Of a stretch of 59,551 nt of DNA, positions 2,355-13,049 are shown piece by piece (position 1 is the first letter of the stretch; each line of letters opens with the position of its first letter). Where the stretch lies: positions 1 through 59,551 of IMG/VR virus record IMGVR_UViG_3300036768_001410; one strand, 5' to 3'. The position numbers and the translations under genes were made by a program. This DNA is from a virus (taxonomy: Duplodnaviria > Caudoviricetes). The notes under the pieces are model-generated. The model was not told where the DNA came from. It did not search any database and worked only from the letters and a program-made list of their open reading frames with translations.

Positions 2355-2536
2355 CGAAGCACCCTTTCTACACTTGCTGTATTCCCCTTCGGCCGCAAGT
2401 GTTCATACTCACGACCAGTATCTTGCCGGCGCCGGGAAGTATTCCCGGCGCTCATCACCACGCAAACAGCGACCACTGTGCAGAGTAGCATCAAAACGCC
2501 GCTGACCATGCCGAGGATAAACCCTGCCCAGAACAT
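2300..2536 (-). CDS. Small single-TM membrane protein
   Basis: MFWAGFILGMVSGVLMLLCTVVAVCVV hydrophobic N-terminus; start overlaps the upstream stop. Confidence 0.45.
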   Translation of the reverse strand: MFWAGFILGMVSGVLMLLCTVVAVCVVMSAGNTSRRRQDTGREYEHLRPKGNTASVERVLRCKGHTSSSRIVNSAERN

Positions 2537-4476: not shown

Positions 4477-5796
4477 GTGAAAGTCCGAGTCAAACGAGAG
4501 GAACTGCTAGAAGCAGTCAGCGCAATTCGTGGTATCTGCGCGGAAAACCGAATAGTCACAACGTATAGACACATCTTCCTTTTGGTGGAAGAGAACAGCT
4601 TGTTCGTGGCAGCTACCGATGGCGAGCAAGCCGCTAAGTTTTTGGTGCCCGCTGAGATAGAGGAAGCGGGGTCGGGAAACATCCACGGCCAAAAGTTGTA
4701 CTCTCTCCTACGAGCACTAAATTGTGACTACGTAGAGATAGAGAGTTACGAGGAAAAGAGTTTCGTACGCTACCCTGGTGGCACTGTACAGTCGGCGTCA
4801 TACGACATAGAGACGGCGCCTTGGAGGTTGCCCGAGGAGGTAACCACGTTGGCTTACCTCCGATATCCGTACGGTCAATTCGTGGGGGCGTTGGATGCTG
4901 TCAAGCACGCCACTGCTTCAAATAAAGATCGACCTATCCTCCAAAGCGTCTGCTTAGAGGTATCCCGGAATCGAAGCTTGTTCATAGCCACTGATGCGAG
5001 GCTACTCTCCGTATGGGAGATGCCTTTCACCGGGGACATATTTTCCGATGAACCGATTCGTGTTGTGATTCCGTCGGATGTTCTTCCGACTATCCGAAAC
5101 TTGTTCAACAACCGAGAGACATCCATAACCGTGTATGGAAATGTTCTCGAAATAGAGGCAGAAGGCCGGTCTTATTGGACTCGCCTTTTGGACGGGGATT
5201 ATCCACATGTTCAAGAACTTCTCAACAATTTTGCGGCGCTAGAAAGTCATGCATTCATAGTTCGCGTGAACAAACGCGCGATGGAAGATGCCGTGAAGCA
5301 TATCGCCGCCTTCGGGTTACCGGAGAGCCTCTCGGTGGGGCTTACCATCACGGAAGACCTTACGATGGAAGTGAGGTCGTCGTCTATGGTCTCTTCTTCT
5401 ACAGAGACCATTGACATCATCGAAATTGATAACGTTGGGAACATGCGTGCAGTGGATTCTCCGTATCTGATTTTCCTCAACACCAAGTATCTTCTCGATA
5501 CCATCAACAGCTTCCATCCTGAGCCAACAGAGCTTTATCTTCACTTTCTAACCCCGATTGATGGTGTTGTAATAACAGACGCAGAGCTCGGCCTCGACTT
5601 TGGATGTCCGCGCTTTACGATTGTCATGCCAATAAGGCATGAGGACATGGAAGCAACCAATAAGTACATTGCCCTCTCAAACGAATGGAAGAAAGGGGTT
5701 GTCAAGACACACACATCAGAAAAGAACGAAAGCCCCAAGGCATTACCTAACGTCTCGATGGAGCGTTACCCCAGCGAGGAGGAGGAATTACCTTGA
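4477..5796 (+). CDS. dnaN: DNA polymerase III beta sliding clamp, with C-terminal extension
   Basis: MKVRVKREELLEAV, ATDGE, RPILQSV, ATDARLL, RLLDGDYP, NTKYLLD, IVMPIR motifs. Confidence 0.9.
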   Translation: MKVRVKREELLEAVSAIRGICAENRIVTTYRHIFLLVEENSLFVAATDGEQAAKFLVPAEIEEAGSGNIHGQKLYSLLRALNCDYVEIESYEEKSFVRYPGGTVQSASYDIETAPWRLPEEVTTLAYLRYPYGQFVGALDAVKHATASNKDRPILQSVCLEVSRNRSLFIATDARLLSVWEMPFTGDIFSDEPIRVVIPSDVLPTIRNLFNNRETSITVYGNVLEIEAEGRSYWTRLLDGDYPHVQELLNNFAALESHAFIVRVNKRAMEDAVKHIAAFGLPESLSVGLTITEDLTMEVRSSSMVSSSTETIDIIEIDNVGNMRAVDSPYLIFLNTKYLLDTINSFHPEPTELYLHFLTPIDGVVITDAELGLDFGCPRFTIVMPIRHEDMEATNKYIALSNEWKKGVVKTHTSEKNESPKALPNVSMERYPSEEEELP

Positions 5797-6089: not shown

Positions 6090-6243
6090 GGCAACGCCAA
6101 AAGAAAAGAGAGCCCCAATCGTGGAGAGCGAGTCAACGTCAACGAGAACCCCAAGGACTTCGAGCGAGCCATGCAGAGTGAAAACCCCATCATCAAAGAG
6201 CGAGCCAGTGCATCAGATAACCTCATGCGGAGGGAGCGAGCCA
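6090..6243 (+). ncRNA. TIGR-like array, upstream block (4 x 36-nt units)
   Basis: GAGCGAGCCA and GAGAACCCCA-like 10-mers alternate, separated by unique 8-mers, with an exact 36-nt period. Confidence 0.85.
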
Positions 6244-6272
6244 CCAAACCCTGTAAATGAAAGGAGTACGCC

Positions 6273-7256
6273 ATGCCTGGCCTAGACTTCAAGGCGGACG
6301 TGGCGCTCACTTTTGAGAAAGCGCGTGTCGCCAGCAACAACAGAATCAAGCACTTAGGGCGCCACAATCGTGTGGATGAGGACGCCGAGAACCTTCTCGC
6401 GATTGTTGGGCATGTCGAGAAAATCCTCGATTACATGCTCAAAAAGGAACTCTTGGAGCATCCCGCCTCCGAATGGTTCCTCCGTCTAAACCTTCCGCTC
6501 CAACCGATAGCAAAGGTCATCGGACGAATCGAAGCATTCGGACGCTGGTATCCAGCGGAGAATGCAGACCTGCTACCGGTGAAGCGGGAACCGGTCGTGC
6601 TGGAGGACGGCAAATCCTACATCTGGGTTGAGGGGATTGAGCGTCTTCCGACGCGTTCCGCTCTCCACAAACTCGCCGGTTACGCCCCTGGGTTCGACCG
6701 GCCACAAAAAGGCATGAAGCGACCCTACGACGGGGAACTCAAAACTATGTGCTACCGCGTGTGGAAATACGGCATGCTGTTCAACCGCACGCGATACTAC
6801 GAACTGTACCGGGAATACAAAGATAACCTGATTCATCGCTACGAATCTGCGGGCATTCGAGTACTTCCCACTCCATCTGGACGGTTCTGCCTGTCCTGCA
6901 TGGAAGATAAGCCCGTACCGTCCACCACGTCCATCTGTCCAGACTGCGGCCAACGGCTGGAAAAGAAAGAGGAACCGGAAGGCGTTCGGTGGCTAGGTCA
7001 CGTGGACAACATGGCAGTACGCTGGACAATCAAGCTGTTTCTGTCGCATCTATGGGAGGTTTGGCGAGCTAAGCTGAATCTTCCCGTGAGGGCTCCCTAT
7101 GCTGAGGAGTATCTAGGACATACTCACATCATCTCCCCCTGGGAAGTATGCGATTTCGATGAGCCACGCACGGTCAAGCTTCAATTGCCGCGCAATGCGG
7201 ACAAATTCTTGAAGCACGTGCTCGAAGCTAAGAACGAAGCAAGCGGGGGAACATAA
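6273..7256 (+). CDS. tasA: Tas protein (TasA-like: Nop/IS110 RNA-binding domain, no nuclease) with Zn-ribbon insertion
   Basis: ARVASNNRI coiled coil, SALHKLAGYAP, YDGELKT, GHVDNMAVRWTIKLFLSHLWEVWR..LPVRAPY...LGH; CLSC..CPDC insert; no RuvC/DEDD or HNH; arrays on both sides. Confidence 0.8.
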   Translation: MPGLDFKADVALTFEKARVASNNRIKHLGRHNRVDEDAENLLAIVGHVEKILDYMLKKELLEHPASEWFLRLNLPLQPIAKVIGRIEAFGRWYPAENADLLPVKREPVVLEDGKSYIWVEGIERLPTRSALHKLAGYAPGFDRPQKGMKRPYDGELKTMCYRVWKYGMLFNRTRYYELYREYKDNLIHRYESAGIRVLPTPSGRFCLSCMEDKPVPSTTSICPDCGQRLEKKEEPEGVRWLGHVDNMAVRWTIKLFLSHLWEVWRAKLNLPVRAPYAEEYLGHTHIISPWEVCDFDEPRTVKLQLPRNADKFLKHVLEAKNEASGGT

Positions 7257-7266
7257 CGCTCTCCCA

Positions 7267-7565
7267 CTTGTAGCCGTTCCCCGAAAGAACCCCATAGAAA
7301 GAGAGCGAGCCTTGGGAAAAGAGAACCCCATTCCACGTGGGCGAGCCATAAAAGTAGAGAACCTCAAGTCGGCAGAGCGAGCATTTAAGACGAGAACCCC
7401 AGGGGATTTGGAACGAGCCATTCAAAGGAGAGAACCCCACCCTCGGTGAGCGAGCCATTTCCGTCGAGAACCTCATTCTGAGGGAGCGAGCAAGAGGGCG
7501 TGAGAACCCCACCTTAAGCGAGCGAGCCACAAGTGTTGAGAACTCCAGTAGAGCGGAGCGCGCTC
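7267..7565 (+). ncRNA. TIGR-like array, downstream block (about 8 x 36-nt units)
   Basis: Loop repeats at 7285, 7321, 7357, 7392, 7430, 7466, 7502, 7538; edge repeats at 7303, 7339, 7375, 7411, 7448, 7484, 7520, 7556. Confidence 0.88.
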
Positions 7566-7590
7566 TCAAGCTAAAACAGGAGACCCTATC

Positions 7591-8364
7591 ATGAATCTGA
7601 ACGAACTCGTGGCGCAGGCGGAACAACGACTCCAAGAAAACGAACCCTTACGCCAAAGCTTATACCAACTCGGTATAACCGATAACACCATAAAGACCTT
7701 CAAGATAGGATACGCCGAAGGCATCACTCCACTCACTGAAGTGGATAACATTGGCGTATATTTCTACTACCCCGACGAAGACATCACACCACTTAATAAA
7801 CCTTCCGATATTATCGGATTATGTACATATAAAGGCATCACTATACCACTCACTGAAAAAGAAGATATTATCGGAGTATATGTCTACAAGCTTGAAGACC
7901 ACACTATAAAACCCCATACGCTCATAGGAGATAACTCCATAATTTGGAACTCCTATTCCATAAGTAGGTCTAATCTAAAGCCGGTAGTTATAACTAATAG
8001 CGTTATACATGCCTTAATGGTGCATGAGTGCGTGGGGGATATTGTAAACACCATTGCAATTGAGTGGACAGACCCAGATATTCATCCTGAGTATTTGGAT
8101 TGTATAGGCAAGATACTTTTATCCCCTGTTATAGTTATGGCTCCTATATGTGAGGACGATATTTGGTATCTTCAGGAGTGGGAGAAGACTTTCAGATACT
8201 ACCGTTCTGAGTTGAAATTGACTTGGGTTTTTAACAAGAGGGGCTGTCTGAGTTACGAGGAAAGCATCAACATTGACTTGGCTAGAAGCGCCGTCAACGG
8301 TCTTCGTAGCCATATAGAATACAAAATCGAAGAGGCTCTCCGCCGGACTGAAGACGAAGAATGA
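7591..8364 (+). CDS. Degenerate DnaG-primase-like protein
   Basis: LYQLGITDNTIKTFKIGYA matches the DnaG catalytic-core N-terminus; the TOPRIM EG..D position reads TNSVIH. Confidence 0.45.
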   Translation: MNLNELVAQAEQRLQENEPLRQSLYQLGITDNTIKTFKIGYAEGITPLTEVDNIGVYFYYPDEDITPLNKPSDIIGLCTYKGITIPLTEKEDIIGVYVYKLEDHTIKPHTLIGDNSIIWNSYSISRSNLKPVVITNSVIHALMVHECVGDIVNTIAIEWTDPDIHPEYLDCIGKILLSPVIVMAPICEDDIWYLQEWEKTFRYYRSELKLTWVFNKRGCLSYEESINIDLARSAVNGLRSHIEYKIEEALRRTEDEE

Positions 8365-8367
8365 GCT

Positions 8368-9234
8368 ATGCCCTACCTGCTGGTAACCGCAGACGCGCGG
8401 CATATCCCCCTGAGAGACGAGAGCGTTCAATGCGTGGTGACCTCGCCTCCGTATTACGGGCTACGTAACTACGGCGTGCCGGGGCAGATAGGGTTGGAAC
8501 CTACTCCTGAAGAGTACGTGTCCAACATCGTATCCGTGTTGAGGGAGGTAAGGCGCGTATTACGCCGTGACGGAACTGTCTGGATTAACTTGGGCGACAC
8601 CTATGCCAACATCGGTCGGGACACCTACCATCAAGGGCCATACAACAGTCGTATACAAGCAACAACGCGGTACCGCTTTGAAAACGAACGTAGAAACTTG
8701 AAAGGTCATCCCATATTCAAAGACAAGGACTTGATGATGATACCGCACCGAGTCGCCATTGCCGCTCAGGAAGACGGCTGGTGGGTCAGATGCGACATCG
8801 TTTGGGACAAGCCCAACGCACTACCAGAGCCAGTGAAGGATAGACCCACATACGCTCATGAGTACATCTTCCTACTCACGAAGAGTAGGACTTACTATTA
8901 CGATGCCGATGCTATTCGTGAGCCGATAGCCCAATCCCGCCAAGAGCACAGCAGGCTAAAGAACAAGCGCAGTGTGTGGAGGGTTCCAACCGATTCGTTC
9001 AAGGATGCGCATTTCGCTGTGTTTCCGCCGGATTTGATAGAGCCGTGCATCTTAGCGGGGTCTCGGCCTGGGGACATCGTGCTCGACCCCTTTTCAGGTT
9101 CCGGCACGACCGGGTTTGTGTGCGCCAAGCACGGACGCATCTACATCGGCCTTGACCGCAACCACGCCTACCACGAGCTAGCCAAAAAGCGAATTGAGCC
9201 TGAAGCTCAACAAGAAAAGCTACTTCTCCCGTAA
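8368..9234 (+). CDS. Orphan beta-class N4-C/N6-A DNA methyltransferase
   Basis: TSPPY motif IV at the N-terminus, HFAVFP, VLDPFSGSGTT motif I at the C-terminus. Confidence 0.92.
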   Translation: MPYLLVTADARHIPLRDESVQCVVTSPPYYGLRNYGVPGQIGLEPTPEEYVSNIVSVLREVRRVLRRDGTVWINLGDTYANIGRDTYHQGPYNSRIQATTRYRFENERRNLKGHPIFKDKDLMMIPHRVAIAAQEDGWWVRCDIVWDKPNALPEPVKDRPTYAHEYIFLLTKSRTYYYDADAIREPIAQSRQEHSRLKNKRSVWRVPTDSFKDAHFAVFPPDLIEPCILAGSRPGDIVLDPFSGSGTTGFVCAKHGRIYIGLDRNHAYHELAKKRIEPEAQQEKLLLP

Positions 9235-9448: not shown

Positions 9449-9841
9449 ATGTCCACAGAGAAAGAGTCTGTGCACAAGACACTTGTGCGGAAAATGCTCG
9501 CCCGAAAGATTGAGTCGTTAACGAGGGATGATGTGCTGTCCGTACCCAAGGACTTCCTTCACCTGACCCAAAACGCTAACGCGGCACTGATACTGGCACT
9601 GGCTTGTGAATATAGCACCGCCGTGCCTAACGGCTGGTTCCAAAAGAGCCAGAAAGAATGGACTGAGGAAACGTCTCTCACACGAGGAGAGACCGAACGT
9701 GCGCGGAAACTCCTCCGAGAGAAAGGGTTCCTCGAAGAGAAACAAGAGGGCCCAGGAGAGACTCTTCACTTTCGAGTGAACGGATGGAACCTTTATCGCG
9801 CCCTCACCGCCCTGAAGAATGGGAAGGAGCCCATCCAATGA
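9449..9841 (+). CDS. Short replication-initiator wHTH paralog
   Basis: DFLHLTQNANAALIL...GWFQKSQKEW..ETERARKLLREKGFLEE, nearly the same as the N-domain of the next gene. Confidence 0.7.
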   Translation: MSTEKESVHKTLVRKMLARKIESLTRDDVLSVPKDFLHLTQNANAALILALACEYSTAVPNGWFQKSQKEWTEETSLTRGETERARKLLREKGFLEEKQEGPGETLHFRVNGWNLYRALTALKNGKEPIQ

Positions 9842-11649
9842 GCGGCAACGAAAACGGAAAGGGTAAGAGCACAGGAAGTATGGCCTATCGAAGCGAGGTG
9901 TCCCGTCAGATTGGCGAATTTACAAGCCCACGCGTGATATGCCTAAGAACGGACTTCATTCACATTACAGGAAGCCACAACGCCGCACTGCTATTGAGTC
10001 AAGCGTTCTACTGGTTTCAGAAGGCAAAAGACCCTGACGGCTGGTTCCAAAAGAGCCAACGGCAATGGACACGAGAACTAGGCCTCTCTCGATTTGAGAC
10101 AGAAACCGCACGGAAAATCCTCCGCGAGAAAGGATTTCTCGAAGAGAGATGCGAGGGGCCTCGAAAGCCCACCTCCTACCGAGTGAATGAACAGAAACTC
10201 TTGGACGCCCTCTTGCAATATGCTAGTAACTCGCATATTGCTAGTAACTCGCATATTGCTAGTAACTCGCATATTGCTAGTAACTCGCATAGCCAACAGT
10301 ATGCTAGTAAGTCGCAATATGCGGCCGACTCGCATAGTCAGCAATATGCGAATAGCCCGCAATATGCGACTAACTCGCATAGCCAGCAATATGCGAATAA
10401 CTCGCAATATGTGGCCGACTCGCATAGTTATACGCAAGAAACTCACATGCGAAAAACTAGCACCCTTGGAGACTATAGTACCCTGGGTACTATAGTACCA
10501 GGGTTATCTTCTTCTTCTTCCTTAGAAGAAGAAGAAGAAGATAACCTCGGTACTATAGAGATTAACACCCCCTTCCTTAAGGTTTCCCCCTCACCGGGTG
10601 AAACCTGGTCTGAAGAAGAGAAAAAAGAAGAACCAGAACCAGAAGAAGGTCTCGAAGGTATCGAATGGGCGAAGGACGTTCGAGAGGGTCGTGGTGTATC
10701 GGAGGTGGTCGAGAGGCCCGACACCAAGTCGGAAGTCAAAACCGCTTTCGGTACGGCCGAAGAGGAGTCAGAGCCCTTTCGTAATTCTCTTTCGTCCTCG
10801 GACCAGGGCCCGGAAAACATTAGAGAAGGTCGGTCGAAGGATGGAAACGACGAGGAGGTCTCCCTCGACTCGAAATCGAGTGGACTATCGGCTGAAGGTA
10901 CGGGAGAGTACTCTTCTGCCTCGAAGGCGTCTGAACAACCGGTAGGACAAGAATCAACTTCCGCCGCCGCGCCGCCCGCCTCCGACGCCGCTCTGCCTGT
11001 CCCCGCCGCATCACTGCCCGCCACGGCGGCTTCGTCCGCGCCTGCTTCGCCTCGCCGTCGAGGAAAGAGACGAAGCATTCCCTATGCTGAGCGGCTCTGG
11101 AACGAGTGGCAGGCTCGGTTTCTTCCCTCAGAGCGGCGCGCCTTCGGACTTACTCACACGCTCAAAGAGTCCGAAACGATTCTTGCCCTGAGGGAAATAG
11201 AGAAAAGCGGCGTCCCGTATAAGAACCTTTCCGACGTCCTCCAACAGGCGTTGGGTAACTACGACCTCAACAAGAACCCAATGAGGATGCCCGTAAAGCA
11301 CTTCAACTACTTCCACAACTTCTTCGTTAACGCCGCCGATAGATATCATCACATAACACGAGCGCTAGCAAACCTCGGCACCCCGTATCGTGACGGCCAT
11401 CGGCGAGAACGCGTGATTCTCGACTACGAGGCCGAAGCCTACCCCAAAGAAGAAAGTCAGTTCGAGGAGTTCCTTCTCGCAGTCCACGACGAATTCGGCC
11501 TAACGGATGCAATACTCGAAGACCCCGACCTCCGTAATCATGTGGCACGAATCGCCGTGAACCATTTCGGATACGACCGGACACAACTCATAGAAATCAA
11601 CCGCTACATTGCCAACTTCCTCTCCGAACTGAAAGGAGACCCCAAATGA
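9838..11649 (+). CDS. Lambda-O-like replication initiator containing the origin
   Basis: N-terminal wHTH, internal iterons, directly upstream of DnaB; ATGA coupling at 9838. Confidence 0.75.
   Translation: MSGNENGKGKSTGSMAYRSEVSRQIGEFTSPRVICLRTDFIHITGSHNAALLLSQAFYWFQKAKDPDGWFQKSQRQWTRELGLSRFETETARKILREKGFLEERCEGPRKPTSYRVNEQKLLDALLQYASNSHIASNSHIASNSHIASNSHSQQYASKSQYAADSHSQQYANSPQYATNSHSQQYANNSQYVADSHSYTQETHMRKTSTLGDYSTLGTIVPGLSSSSSLEEEEEDNLGTIEINTPFLKVSPSPGETWSEEEKKEEPEPEEGLEGIEWAKDVREGRGVSEVVERPDTKSEVKTAFGTAEEESEPFRNSLSSSDQGPENIREGRSKDGNDEEVSLDSKSSGLSAEGTGEYSSASKASEQPVGQESTSAAAPPASDAALPVPAASLPATAASSAPASPRRRGKRRSIPYAERLWNEWQARFLPSERRAFGLTHTLKESETILALREIEKSGVPYKNLSDVLQQALGNYDLNKNPMRMPVKHFNYFHNFFVNAADRYHHITRALANLGTPYRDGHRRERVILDYEAEAYPKEESQFEEFLLAVHDEFGLTDAILEDPDLRNHVARIAVNHFGYDRTQLIEINRYIANFLSELKGDPK
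10218..10463. repeat. 18-bp iterons (putative replication origin)
   Basis: Four tandem near-perfect ATTGCTAGTAACTCGCAT copies, then degenerate ATGCG-N7-CGCA copies. Confidence 0.8.
10472..10558. repeat. Overlapping palindromes next to the iterons
   Basis: ACTATAGTACCC-T-GGGTACTATAGT (10472-10496) and CTATAGTACC..GGTTATCTTCTTCTTCTTC / GAAGAAGAAGAAGATAACC..GGTACTATAG (10490-10558). Confidence 0.8.
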
Positions 11650-13049
11650 GGAACATCAGAAAGAAGAGCACCATGTCCAAGCCGTTGCACAAACCCAACA
11701 AACCCAACAAAACCGACACTGAATTGTTGCCGGCGGAGATGAGTGAATCCGAATACCTAATCGAAATGGCAATCCTCAGCTGTTGCATCCATTCCGAAGA
11801 GCACGTGGCCGTTGCAAAGGCGGGATTGCCAACTTCAGGACAGGTGTTCCGGCTGCCCAAAAACCAGATAATTTGGGAAGCGATAAAGGAACTACATCAA
11901 CAGGGGATTCCCATTGACCTCTTGTCCATGACAAAACACTTGAAGGAAAAGGGACTTCTCGACAAAGCCGGAGGGGTAGAATACCTGTATCACCTAACGG
12001 ACGTGTATCTCTGCGGGGAAAACCTAGAATGGTATATCTCTCAACAAGTAGAAGTTTCCAAGCGTATGTATTTGGTTGAGATGGGGAGAATGATATCAGG
12101 AGGAGCCTTGTACGGGAACCTCTCTATGGAAGACCTCGAAGAGAGAGTCGAACTACTAGTCCGCCGGCTTGAGGAGAAATCTCCTGTCTCTATCAAGAAC
12201 ACCGCGCAGCAGATTGCCACCACCATCGCCCAAACGAAAGAACGTATTCACAGCGGGAACCTCGGTGGCATCCCAACGGGACTTCCCTCTCTTGATTACC
12301 TTATTGGTGGTCTGGTTCCTAGGCAAATGGTGATTGTGGCGGGACGACCTTCAATGGGCAAATCCGCGTTGGCCTTTCAAATCGCCACTCACGTTGCCCT
12401 GCGTGAGAATAAAGGCGCGATTATCTTTTCCTGCGAGATGAACTATGCCGACGTATGGAGGCGAATTATCTGTGGCGAAGCCAAAATCAATTCCCACCAA
12501 CTCCTCATGGGAGACCCTGACCACCATTGGGATGACTTTGAAACTACCGCAAACGCGCTCGCTAACACGCCACTCATCGTGGACGACTCCGCCAATATCA
12601 CCATCTCTTATATCGAGGCTACATGCCGAGCCCTTGTCCAAAAGAGATTCCCGCTGAAACTGGTCGTGGTGGACTATATCCAATACATGATTCCAGAGGG
12701 GCAACGTAATATAGAGCTGCGAGAACGTGAAATCGCCGAGTTCTCACGCTCTCTCAAGCACATCGCCAGCGAGCTCAACGTCTCCCTGCTTGCGGTCTCC
12801 CAACTCAATCGAAGCGTCGAATCCCGCACCACTAAACGGCCTCTCCTCTCCGACCTGCGCGAATCCGGCGCCATCGAGCAAGACGCCGACATAGTCCTAG
12901 CCATCTACCGACCCTCTTACTACGAATACAATTCCCCAGACGAACCCGACGAAATCATCGTCCTCAAACACCGCAACGGACCCGTAGGAACTGCAAAAGT
13001 CAGGTTCAACCCCAACCTCGGTCGCTTCTTTGAGCTGGATGCCTTCTAA
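11646..13049 (+). CDS. dnaB: Replicative DNA helicase DnaB
   Basis: GIPTG, AGRPSMGKS, FSCEM, VVDYIQ, SQLNR, LSDLRESGAIEQDAD, KHRNGP. Confidence 0.96.
   Translation: MRNIRKKSTMSKPLHKPNKPNKTDTELLPAEMSESEYLIEMAILSCCIHSEEHVAVAKAGLPTSGQVFRLPKNQIIWEAIKELHQQGIPIDLLSMTKHLKEKGLLDKAGGVEYLYHLTDVYLCGENLEWYISQQVEVSKRMYLVEMGRMISGGALYGNLSMEDLEERVELLVRRLEEKSPVSIKNTAQQIATTIAQTKERIHSGNLGGIPTGLPSLDYLIGGLVPRQMVIVAGRPSMGKSALAFQIATHVALRENKGAIIFSCEMNYADVWRRIICGEAKINSHQLLMGDPDHHWDDFETTANALANTPLIVDDSANITISYIEATCRALVQKRFPLKLVVVDYIQYMIPEGQRNIELREREIAEFSRSLKHIASELNVSLLAVSQLNRSVESRTTKRPLLSDLRESGAIEQDADIVLAIYRPSYYEYNSPDEPDEIIVLKHRNGPVGTAKVRFNPNLGRFFELDAF

What the first reader, a model, noticed from the sequence alone, without database searches (positions are those of the whole stretch)
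6100..7556. Predicted guide targets share a fixed central GC
Seen: nearly every spacer is followed by an invariant G, then AG (the position where described TIGR repeats typically have UG). Read as 9-nt spacers with the opposite-strand rule (spacerA + revcomp spacerB), the targets are ACGTCAACG-CGAAGTCCT, TGCAGAGTG-CTTTGATGA, GTGCATCAG-CCCTCCGCA, TGGGAAAAG-CACGTGGAA, TAAAAGTAG-CTGCCGACT, TTTCCGTCG-CCCTCAGAA, GAGGGCGTG-CGCTTAAGG and CAAGTGTTG-CCGCTCTAC. Inference: either the system needs an internal GC core (recalling the IS110 core dinucleotide) or it is an 8-nt-spacer variant. No full self-target was noticed by eye, but the check was not exhaustive.
Basis: inference. Interest (0 to 1): 0.7.

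Follow-up and report, generated by a model that had tools for sequence, protein, structure and literature searches.

The report
Phage TIGR array with 8-letter spacers
The fixed G after every spacer is real, but it most likely belongs to the repeat of an already described kind of phage guide-RNA array (TIGR-Tas) with 8-letter spacers, and is probably not a letter that every target must match.

Summary
Confirmed: window 6091-7565 holds a TIGR-Tas locus on a 59.5-kb tailed-phage contig. Two dual-repeat arrays (4 and 8 units, 36-nt period) flank a 327-aa Tas gene with no nuclease domain. The letter before box D is G in 23 of 24 half-units (P about 2e-12); the eight letters before it vary.

The GC-core reading is not supported. 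The same position is a purine in 142 of 142 in-register half-units of seven related loci (122 G, 20 A). It is A in 14 of 16 in the Salicola phage CGphi29 array, whose edge repeat differs from the window's only at that letter. For that system the papers I read report 16 variable letters and 8-bp heteroduplexes.

Purine frequency jumps from about 0.55 at spacer position 8 to 1.0 at this position. Strain variants in public runs carry other spacers but keep the G.

No self-target beyond chance was found in the window. Searches for targets in outside collections could not be run. Interest is low: a new member of a known kind.

The parts
6091..6243 (+). TIGR array 1, upstream of tas: degenerate leading edge, 4 guide units (edge, spacer A, loop, spacer B) starting at 6091, 6127, 6163 and 6199, and a closing edge repeat at 6235-6243. 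Loops at 6181 and 6217 depart from AG at box D.
   Evidence: Coordinate lay-out; 36-nt period. Edge versus loop phase follows from the end letters of the 4-nt gap: C and G (complementary) in edges, A and C in loops. This is the criterion described in Xu et al. Methods.
6273..7256 (+). tas gene, 327 aa (P0001): N-terminal coiled-coil hairpin (helices 4-29 and 36-61) and a Nop-type RNA-binding domain. No nuclease domain, so TasA-like.
   Evidence: Sequence hits to solved TasR 9mty (E 6e-6) and TasH (E 4e-4). AlphaFold model mean pLDDT 90.9. Foldseek top ten are all TasH or TasR chains (best 9w04_B, E 8e-7). No Pfam family. PHROG 4285 labelled 'transposase', E 5e-19.
6888..6947 (+). Codons of the four-cysteine zinc ribbon (C206, C209, C222, C225). 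It lies inside an insertion (about residues 187-242) at the site of the shorter beta-hairpin insertion of SpTasH.
   Evidence: C206, C209 and C222 are invariant and C225 nearly invariant in 20 homologues. The insertion is placed from the gapped BLASTP alignment, and from the strands in the model.
7098..7121 (+). Codons of Y276 and H283. They align with SpTasH Y289 and H296, reported as the residues that process the array transcript.
   Evidence: Alignments. Y276 is invariant and H283 is present in at least 90% of 20 homologues. Their role in SpTasH is taken from the NAR 2026 paper, section 15.
7269..7565 (+). TIGR array 2, downstream of tas: degenerate leading edge, then 8 guide units starting at 7269, 7304, 7340, 7376, 7411, 7449, 7485 and 7521, and a truncated closing edge at 7557-7565. 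The edge at 7376 lacks one letter; the unit at 7411 has one extra letter in the edge and one in the spacer interval.
   Evidence: No terminator-like site follows. The next ORF starts at 7591.
6108..7556 (+). The 24 positions in question, each the letter just before box D: 6108, 6126, 6144, 6162, 6180, 6198, 6216, 6234, 7285 (A), 7303, 7321, 7339, 7357, 7375, 7392, 7410, 7430, 7448, 7466, 7484, 7502, 7520, 7538, 7556. I read them as the first letter of a 10-nt repeat.
   Evidence: 23 G, 1 A. Relatives. Purine profile.

Best explanation
The locus is a phage-borne dual-repeat TIGR-Tas system of the nuclease-less (TasA-like) kind. Its repeats are 10 nt long: a fixed purine, box D (AG), four letters, box C (CCA). 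Its spacers are 8 nt, as in the CGphi29 TIGR array. The invariant G is the first letter of each repeat and does not specify the target.

Inferred working: the arrays are transcribed with the phage replication genes. The Tas dimer binds the transcript through boxes C and D and cuts it in the middle of the edge repeats into 36-nt guides, using the conserved Tyr/His pair. Spacer A pairs with one DNA strand and spacer B with the other over a 16-bp site (A8 + revcomp B8), perhaps with a 1-2 bp gap tolerated. Having no nuclease, the complex acts by binding, for example by blocking transcription or replication of a host or rival element.

The fixed purine probably stacks on the end of the 8-bp RNA-DNA helix or contacts the protein next to box D. 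That would set the helix length at 8. This last step is my inference.
For: Shown here:
- Tas fold and family.
- Array anatomy with AG and CCA in both edge and loop repeats.
- The position is G in 23 of 24 half-units, while its eight neighbours vary.
- In seven related loci found through the protein (L001, L002, L003, L005, L006, L009, L010) it is a purine in 142 of 142 in-register half-units (122 G, 20 A, no C or T). The filter did not use that column.
- In the CGphi29 array the edge repeat differs from the window's consensus only at this position. The position is A in 14 of 16, G in 1 and T in 1.
- Purine frequency at spacer position 8 is 0.54 in the window and 0.55-0.61 in relatives, then jumps to 1.0 at this position. 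It is therefore not the end of a gradient.
- Contigs of strain variants carry different spacers between the same repeats. By my reading of table 7, seven distinct array-internal loose ends show 10 G, 1 A and 1 ambiguous case.

From papers:
- SpTIGR has 16 variable letters per guide (Faure 2025, section read).
- 'The 8 nt Spacer A ... base-pairs' (Guan preprint, section 8).
- In the SpTasH complex the flanking duplex starts at position 17 (NAR 2026 passage), which I read as a contiguous 16-bp site.
- TasA and inactive TasR repress transcription when guided (Xu preprint, section 12).
- Y276 and H283 align with the SpTasH processing residues.
Against: - There are no data on this system itself.
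- SpTasH shares only 24% identity over 189 aligned columns with this protein and carries an HNH domain that this protein lacks.
- In the canonical geometry (CCA, 9 letters, two-letter box D, 4-nt gap) the G sits where TaTasR has its ninth spacer letter, and that letter does pair with DNA.
- In L009 the position alternates between G (22) and A (14), as a constrained spacer position might.
- TaTasR tolerates 1-2 bp gaps between the half-sites, and a 'gap dsDNA' TasH complex is deposited (9vzx, title only). Pairing of the two G's with a central GC in an 8+2+8 site is therefore not excluded.
- No natural target was found, so the central letters of real targets are unknown.
- I could not see the supplementary figures (S4, S5A, S8 of Faure et al.) or the Mol Cell 2026 TasH paper. 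These would show what the fixed A does in SpTasH.
Confidence: 0.8

Rival explanations
1. Internal GC core. Spacers are functionally 9 nt, and the fixed G of each pairs with a C at the target centre. Every target would then carry a central palindromic GC (R-Y in relatives), acting as an internal target motif.
For: The position matches the ninth, DNA-paired spacer letter of TaTasR in the CCA / 9 / box D / 4-nt-gap geometry. The unit length is the same 36 nt. G and A alternate in L009.
Against: - SpTIGR, with the same repeat type and a fixed A there, forms 8-bp heteroduplexes on what I read as a 16-bp site.
- No targeting motif was found for TasR or TasH.
- The column is purine-only in 142 of 142 half-units across loci whose spacers are otherwise unrelated. 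This is the behaviour of a repeat column.
- The jump in purine frequency from 0.55 to 1.0.
- The 18-mers have no match of 3 or fewer mismatches in the window.
Confidence: 0.1
2. Acquisition footprint. The G is copied from the source DNA together with each spacer, because the unknown spacer-uptake process picks sites next to a fixed letter. It would be a fossil of uptake, not a structural or pairing letter.
For: How TIGR arrays gain spacers is unknown. Arrays differ completely between close strains, so turnover is active.
Against: The same purine stands before both edge and loop repeats. It is conserved in clades with 38-45% identical proteins, and as A in SpTIGR. It is also kept in degenerate units. 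A letter with no function in the RNA should drift, as the neighbouring repeat letters do.
Confidence: 0.05
3. Decayed or non-functional array. The regularity is inherited from recent unit duplication, and the G says nothing about function.
For: Array 1 has two loops that depart from AG at box D, and array 2 has two units with one-letter indels.
Against: The spacers are all different. The tas frame is intact, with conserved processing residues. Variants in other runs keep the repeats with other spacers. Eight of 11 related loci show arrays with a 35- or 36-nt period.
Confidence: 0.03

Closest known systems
TIGR-TasH of Salicola phage CGphi29 (SpTIGR / SpTasH)
   Same: Phage-borne dual-repeat array with a 36-nt unit, 10-nt repeats and 8 variable letters per spacer. 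AG at box D and CCA at box C in both repeats. The edge repeat equals the window's consensus except for the first letter, A instead of G. Same Nop-domain fold, and the Tyr/His processing pair aligns.
   Different: SpTasH has an N-terminal HNH nuclease; this protein starts directly with the coiled coil and has none. This protein has a four-cysteine zinc ribbon where SpTasH has a short beta-hairpin. Arrays lie on both sides of the gene here; in CGphi29 I found one only downstream. Identity is 24% over 189 aligned columns.
TIGR-TasR of a Thermoproteota archaeon (TaTasR, PDB 9mty)
   Same: Tas fold. Tandem-spacer targeting rule. 36-nt guide. Box C is CCA. The edge repeat has an extra base pair next to the box C/D pair.
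   Different: TaTasR has a RuvC nuclease, UG at box D, and 9-nt spacers all paired with DNA. Here box D is AG and only 8 letters vary.
Nuclease-less TasA systems (FpTasA, MbTasA, PlTasA)
   Same: Nop domain plus coiled coil only. Guide-dependent DNA binding and transcriptional repression are reported for MbTasA. TasA is the commonest Tas form.
   Different: PlTasA uses stem-loop guides and 9-bp heteroduplexes, and FpTIGR has 18 variable letters. I did not compare sequences with these proteins. The zinc ribbon is not mentioned in the parts of the papers that I read.
IS110/IS621 bridge-RNA recombinases (core dinucleotide)
   Same: Related Nop-type RNA-binding domain. Weak fold matches to IS621 chains (E 0.33 to 1.1). 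A PHROG labelled 'transposase' matches residues 118-291.
   Different: No DEDD/RuvC-like or Tnp catalytic domain, no two-loop bridge RNA, an array of many guides, and no terminal repeats looked for. The core dinucleotide of IS110 targets is something I recall, not something from a call. The fixed G here shows no sign of playing that part.

Membership tests
TIGR-Tas system | Tas protein with a Nop-type RNA-binding domain and a coiled-coil dimerisation domain | tested here: met
   Sequence hits to solved TasR and TasH. Model pLDDT 90.9. The ten best Foldseek matches are all TasH or TasR chains, E 8e-7 to 6e-5. Dimerisation itself was not tested.
TIGR-Tas system | Adjacent array of two alternating short repeats (edge, loop) with two short spacers per unit of about 36 nt | tested here: met
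   12 units on both sides of the gene. Ten of 11 parsed units are exactly 36 nt.
TIGR-Tas system | Box D at the start and box C at the end of both repeats, the same in edge and loop | tested here: met
   AG starts 18 of 24 repeats, and the CCA-type ending is shared by edges and loops. Criterion from Faure 2025.
TIGR-Tas system | Edge repeat able to form an extra base pair next to the box C/D pair; loop repeat not | tested here: met
   The end letters of the 4-nt gap are C and G in edges and A and C in loops. Criterion.
TIGR-Tas system | Array transcript processed into 36-nt guides bound by Tas | not testable with these tools
   No run on record as RNA was listed. Indirect only: Y276 and H283 align with the SpTasH processing residues.
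SpTIGR-type array (8-nt spacers, 10-nt repeats) | Only 8 variable letters per spacer, with a fixed letter before box D in both repeats | tested here: met
   Window: 23 of 24 G. SpTIGR: 14 of 16 A. The papers give 16 variable letters and 8-bp heteroduplexes for SpTIGR.
SpTIGR-type array (8-nt spacers, 10-nt repeats) | The fixed letter does not pair with target DNA | not testable with these tools
   Known only for SpTasH, from text. No target of the window's guides was found.
TasA (nuclease-less Tas) | No HNH or RuvC domain | tested here: met
   No Pfam family at E 0.01 or better. The model begins with the coiled-coil helices at residue 4. The only extra element is a four-cysteine ribbon.
IS110-family bridge-RNA recombinase | N-terminal DEDD/RuvC-like catalytic domain, C-terminal Tnp domain and a single bridge RNA | tested here: not met
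   No such Pfam domains. IS621 chains match only at E 0.33 or worse. The RNA here is a multi-unit array.

The most novel reading that the evidence does not exclude
The fixed purine is a constrained ninth guide letter. It pairs at the target centre, so this clade of TIGR systems, unlike the motif-free TasR and TasH, reads an internal R-Y (here GC) core. That would be a built-in target motif placed where the two half-sites meet.
Probability: 0.1. Interest if true: 0.6.

Novelty: new member of a known kind. Interest (0 to 1): 0.25.

Why it matters
It sets how spacers of this clade should be read when looking for targets. Treating the G as a guide letter forces a central GC and would miss contiguous 16-bp sites. 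Treating it as a repeat letter gives 16-letter guides, whose chance matches are 16 times more frequent than those of 18-mers. Motif-based annotation that assumes 9 letters between box C and a two-letter box D would list a ninth 'spacer' letter that never varies.

Beyond that, the locus is an ordinary TIGR-TasA system. Its zinc-ribbon insertion and the complete turnover of spacers between close strains are the points that might repay further work.

Tried and rejected
Self-targeting. I searched the whole contig (the window is the whole assembly), with the arrays masked, for A8 + 0-2 letters + revcomp(B8) for all 12 units.
- No hit with 2 or fewer mismatches, and 23 hits with 3.
- Mispaired controls (all 132 A-B pairs with i not equal to j, scaled to 12 guides): 2.0 hits with 2 or fewer mismatches and 20.6 with 3.
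- The 9+9 form: 0 hits with 3 or fewer mismatches, against 0.8 in the control.
- Wrong-order control (revcomp B + A): 3 hits with 2 mismatches. Same-strand control (A + B): 3 with 2 mismatches and 1 with 1 mismatch.
There is no enrichment.

Held loci. The same search over L001-L012 (87,713 bases) gave two 2-mismatch hits, as chance would give. The nine parsed SpTIGR guides have no hit with 2 or fewer mismatches in their own phage genome.

Shared guides. Among 105 parsed units of all loci, none is shared between loci. One pair within L006 differs by one letter. Two other close pairs come from off-register parses.

Base pairing of the fixed letter. I looked by eye at the rows for covariation with the middle C of box C. 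I saw none: A goes with C in SpTIGR, and both G and A go with C in L009. I rejected this idea without a formal count.

Other searches.
- Rfam: only a sub-threshold isrG match on the other strand.
- Tandem Repeats Finder: nothing.
- Viral-contig scan with the protein alignment: no relative.
- No RNA holder listed among the sequencing runs.
- The joints that read laying reports between the two arrays (table 5) have sides of 25-29 letters inside repeats. I take them as repeat artefacts.
- Papers: supplements are closed and the Mol Cell 2026 TasH paper is not held. What the fixed A does in the SpTasH structure is therefore known to me only from the sentences cited.
- Slips corrected: a search term that was too short and an end coordinate beyond the record.
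Full report
WHAT IS THERE. The window is the whole assembly, one contig of 59,551 bases. It encodes a large terminase subunit, a portal protein and a major head protein. It also encodes a replication block: a sliding-clamp-like protein at 4477-5796, an N6/N4 DNA methyltransferase at 8368-9234, a replication initiator-like protein at 9784-11649 and a DnaB helicase at 11646-13049. It is therefore a tailed-phage genome or a large part of one. Inside the replication block, on the + strand, lies ORF 6273-7256 (327 aa, P0001), flanked by two repeat arrays.

THE ARRAYS. Laid out by coordinates, array 1 (6091-6243) has four units and a closing edge repeat. Array 2 (7269-7565) has eight units and a truncated closing edge. 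[quoted passage not shown]
- Both repeats start with AG and end with a CCA-type triplet.
- The four letters between have complementary end letters (C, G) in the edge and non-complementary ones (A, C) in the loop. This is the criterion used to tell edge from loop and matches the extra base pair described for TasR edge repeats.
- The leading unit of each array is degenerate.
- Two loops of array 1 (6181, 6217) depart from AG.
- Array 2 has a one-letter deletion at 7376 and one-letter insertions at 7411.

THE PROTEIN. Pfam finds nothing, and a PHROG labelled 'transposase' matches residues 118-291. Against solved structures the sequence hits TaTasR (9mty, E 6e-6) and SpTasH (E 4e-4) over the C-terminal helices.
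- An AlphaFold model built on 20 homologues has mean pLDDT 90.9.
- Its ten best Foldseek matches in the PDB are all TasH or TasR chains (E 8e-7 to 6e-5). IS621 recombinase follows only at E 0.33.
- The model starts with two long helices (4-29, 36-61), the coiled coil. There is no room for an HNH or RuvC domain, so this is a TasA-like protein.
- A four-cysteine ribbon (C206, C209 and C222 invariant, C225 nearly so) sits in an insertion at the place of the shorter SpTasH beta-hairpin.
- Y276 and H283 align with SpTasH Y289 and H296. The NAR 2026 paper (section 15 read) gives these as the residues that process the array transcript. Faure et al. 2025 had instead suspected a host RNase (Discussion read).
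- The wider family is large: 948 cluster representatives at E 0.001 or better, 137 at 1e-10 and 19 at 1e-30.

THE OBSERVATION. The letter before box D is G in 23 of 24 half-units; the exception is in a degenerate leading unit. The eight letters before it carry all four bases. The chance probability is 2.5e-12.

WHAT THE G IS: FIVE LINES OF EVIDENCE.

(1) Relatives. Scans with the protein alignment found 3 loci in genome contigs and 8 in metagenome contigs and none in viral contigs.
- Eight of the 11 loci show 35- or 36-nt periodicity next to the gene. L003 and L007 give the same consensus.
- L004 has three edge motifs at 36-37-nt spacing about 1 kb upstream. L008 and L011 show none in the short flanks that are held.
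- After a register filter that did not use the column in question, 71 units (142 half-units) from L001, L002, L003, L005, L006, L009 and L010 have 122 G, 20 A and no C or T there. Units dropped as off-register or of odd length are listed per locus; for example 18 of 24 were kept for L009 and 17 of 22 for L006.
- These loci share no guides with each other or with the window.
- A column that stays a purine while every spacer changes is a repeat column.

(2) The characterised system. I read the CGphi29 genome and found its array downstream of the TasH gene.
- It has 10-nt repeats and 8 variable letters per spacer.
- Its edge repeat is the same as the window's consensus except for the first letter. 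That letter is A in 14 of 16 half-units, G in 1 and T in 1.
- The papers give this system 16 variable letters per guide and an 8-nt spacer A that base-pairs.
- They describe heteroduplexes one base pair shorter than the nine of PlTasA and TaTasR, mismatch positions numbered 1 to 16, and a flanking duplex that starts at position 17.
- So in the closest studied array the matching fixed purine is not counted among the paired letters.

(3) No gradient. Purine frequency along the eight variable positions ends at 0.54 in the window and at 0.61 (spacer A) and 0.55 (spacer B) in relatives. It then jumps to 1.0 at this position.

(4) Strain variants. Three runs of three studies hold the stretch or part of it; X1 may be the source. 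Their contigs include relatives whose tas gene and flanks differ by roughly 6-10% of letters but whose arrays do not fit the window (tables 7 and 8).
- By my reading of the seven distinct array-internal loose ends, the repeats are the same and the spacers are different. The letter before box D is G in 10 cases, A in 1 and ambiguous in 1.
- One X2 contig has 338 letters where the window has 122 (6111-6232). The difference is 216, which is six units of 36.

(5) No target. There is nothing above mispaired controls in the window, in either the 8+0-2+8 or the 9+9 form, and nothing in the other held loci.

WHAT REMAINS OPEN. In the canonical geometry the G occupies the place of TaTasR's ninth spacer letter, which does pair with DNA. 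TaTasR accepts 1-2 bp gaps between half-sites, and a TasH complex with 'gap dsDNA' is deposited (title only). An 8+2+8 site whose centre happens to be GC could therefore be read by the two G's as well. In L009, G and A alternate. I rate obligatory central pairing at about 0.1. What the purine does physically (stacking on the end of the 8-bp helix, or a protein contact next to box D) is my inference only.

HOW IT MOST LIKELY WORKS.
- Shown: the fold, the array anatomy, the conserved processing residues, and the repeat-like behaviour of the G.
- Inferred from the family: transcription with the neighbouring genes (no promoter-like or terminator-like site stands out); self-processing into 36-nt guides; a dimer holding one guide; spacer A on one strand and spacer B on the other. 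With the order A + revcomp(B), the 3' ends of both spacers meet at the target centre, which is the order that gives the reported 3' overhangs (derivation mine).
- Inferred from TasA work: action by binding alone, such as repression or interference with a rival element. The target is unknown.

COMPARISON AND NOVELTY. This is a member of the TIGR-Tas family. Its array is of the SpTIGR type and its effector is TasA-like with a zinc-ribbon insertion. The fixed letter and the 8-nt spacers are already implicit in the description of SpTIGR. The parts of the papers that I read do not mention the zinc ribbon or the fixed purine as such. I ran no search aimed at either, so I make no claim that they are absent from print. 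Searches were for TIGR-Tas literature in general. Verdict: a new member of a known kind, of low interest. The practical point is that guides of this clade should be read as 8+8 when looking for targets.

PAPERS SEEN.
- PMC12045711: outline; sections 4, 5, 6, 7, 8, 10, 24 and 49; passages.
- 10.64898/2026.09.09.750476: outline; sections 5, 12 and 21; passages.
- 10.64898/2026.08.11.744272: outline; sections 5, 6, 7 and 8; passages.
- PMC13421893: outline; sections 15, 16 and 18; passages.
- 10.64898/2026.07.30.739390: passages only.
- The Mol Cell 2026 TasH paper is known only from a reference list.
- No supplements were seen.

Noticed in passing
window 6111-6232 and 7300-7560; runs X1-X3: Close strain variants, whose tas gene and flanks differ by roughly 6-10% of letters, carry entirely different spacers between the same repeats. 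One X2 contig has 338 letters where the window has 122, a difference of exactly six 36-nt units. An X3 contig has 226 letters where the window has 125. TIGR arrays seem to turn over fast between co-occurring phage strains, which bears on the open question of how they gain spacers.
   Followed up: partly
window 2479-2495 (+): Spacer A and spacer B of the unit at 6163 match one strand in the same orientation (A, one letter, B) with a single mismatch. This is a control arrangement that the published targeting rule does not use. A hit this close occurred about 0.09 times per 12 guides among the mispaired opposite-strand pairs.
   Followed up: no
L001, L002, L003, L005, L006, L009, L010 arrays: Spacer B of the relatives is purine-rich at positions 3, 4 and 7 (0.80, 0.87 and 0.77 of 71 units), more so than spacer A. 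The window's 24 spacers peak at position 6 (0.75). This may reflect the stability of short RNA-DNA helices or the kind of site targeted.
   Followed up: no
window, first letter after box C of each spacer: T stands at the first spacer position in 12 of 24 half-units.
   Followed up: no
window 6858-6992 (residues about 196-240 of the Tas protein): A four-cysteine zinc ribbon is conserved in the 20 closest homologues and is inserted where SpTasH has the beta-hairpin that docks its HNH domain. Its role in a nuclease-less protein is unknown.
   Followed up: partly
window 7376-7430: Two neighbouring units of array 2 carry a one-letter deletion in one edge repeat, then one-letter insertions in the next edge and spacer interval. 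The register slips by one and is not restored, and these guides may be defective.
   Followed up: no
window 7548-7566: The last spacer and the truncated closing edge form a short palindrome with no T run after it. Described TIGR arrays typically end with a rho-independent terminator, but none was found here.
   Followed up: no
L006 2665 and 4144: The arrays upstream and downstream of the same tas gene share one guide unit that differs by one letter. Both copies have A instead of G before the loop repeat, so a unit seems to have been copied between the two arrays.
   Followed up: no
L005 2440-2780 and 3930-4323: This relative's arrays have a 35-nt period: a 10-nt edge repeat but a 9-nt loop repeat. 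This departs from the 36-nt unit described for dual-repeat guides.
   Followed up: no
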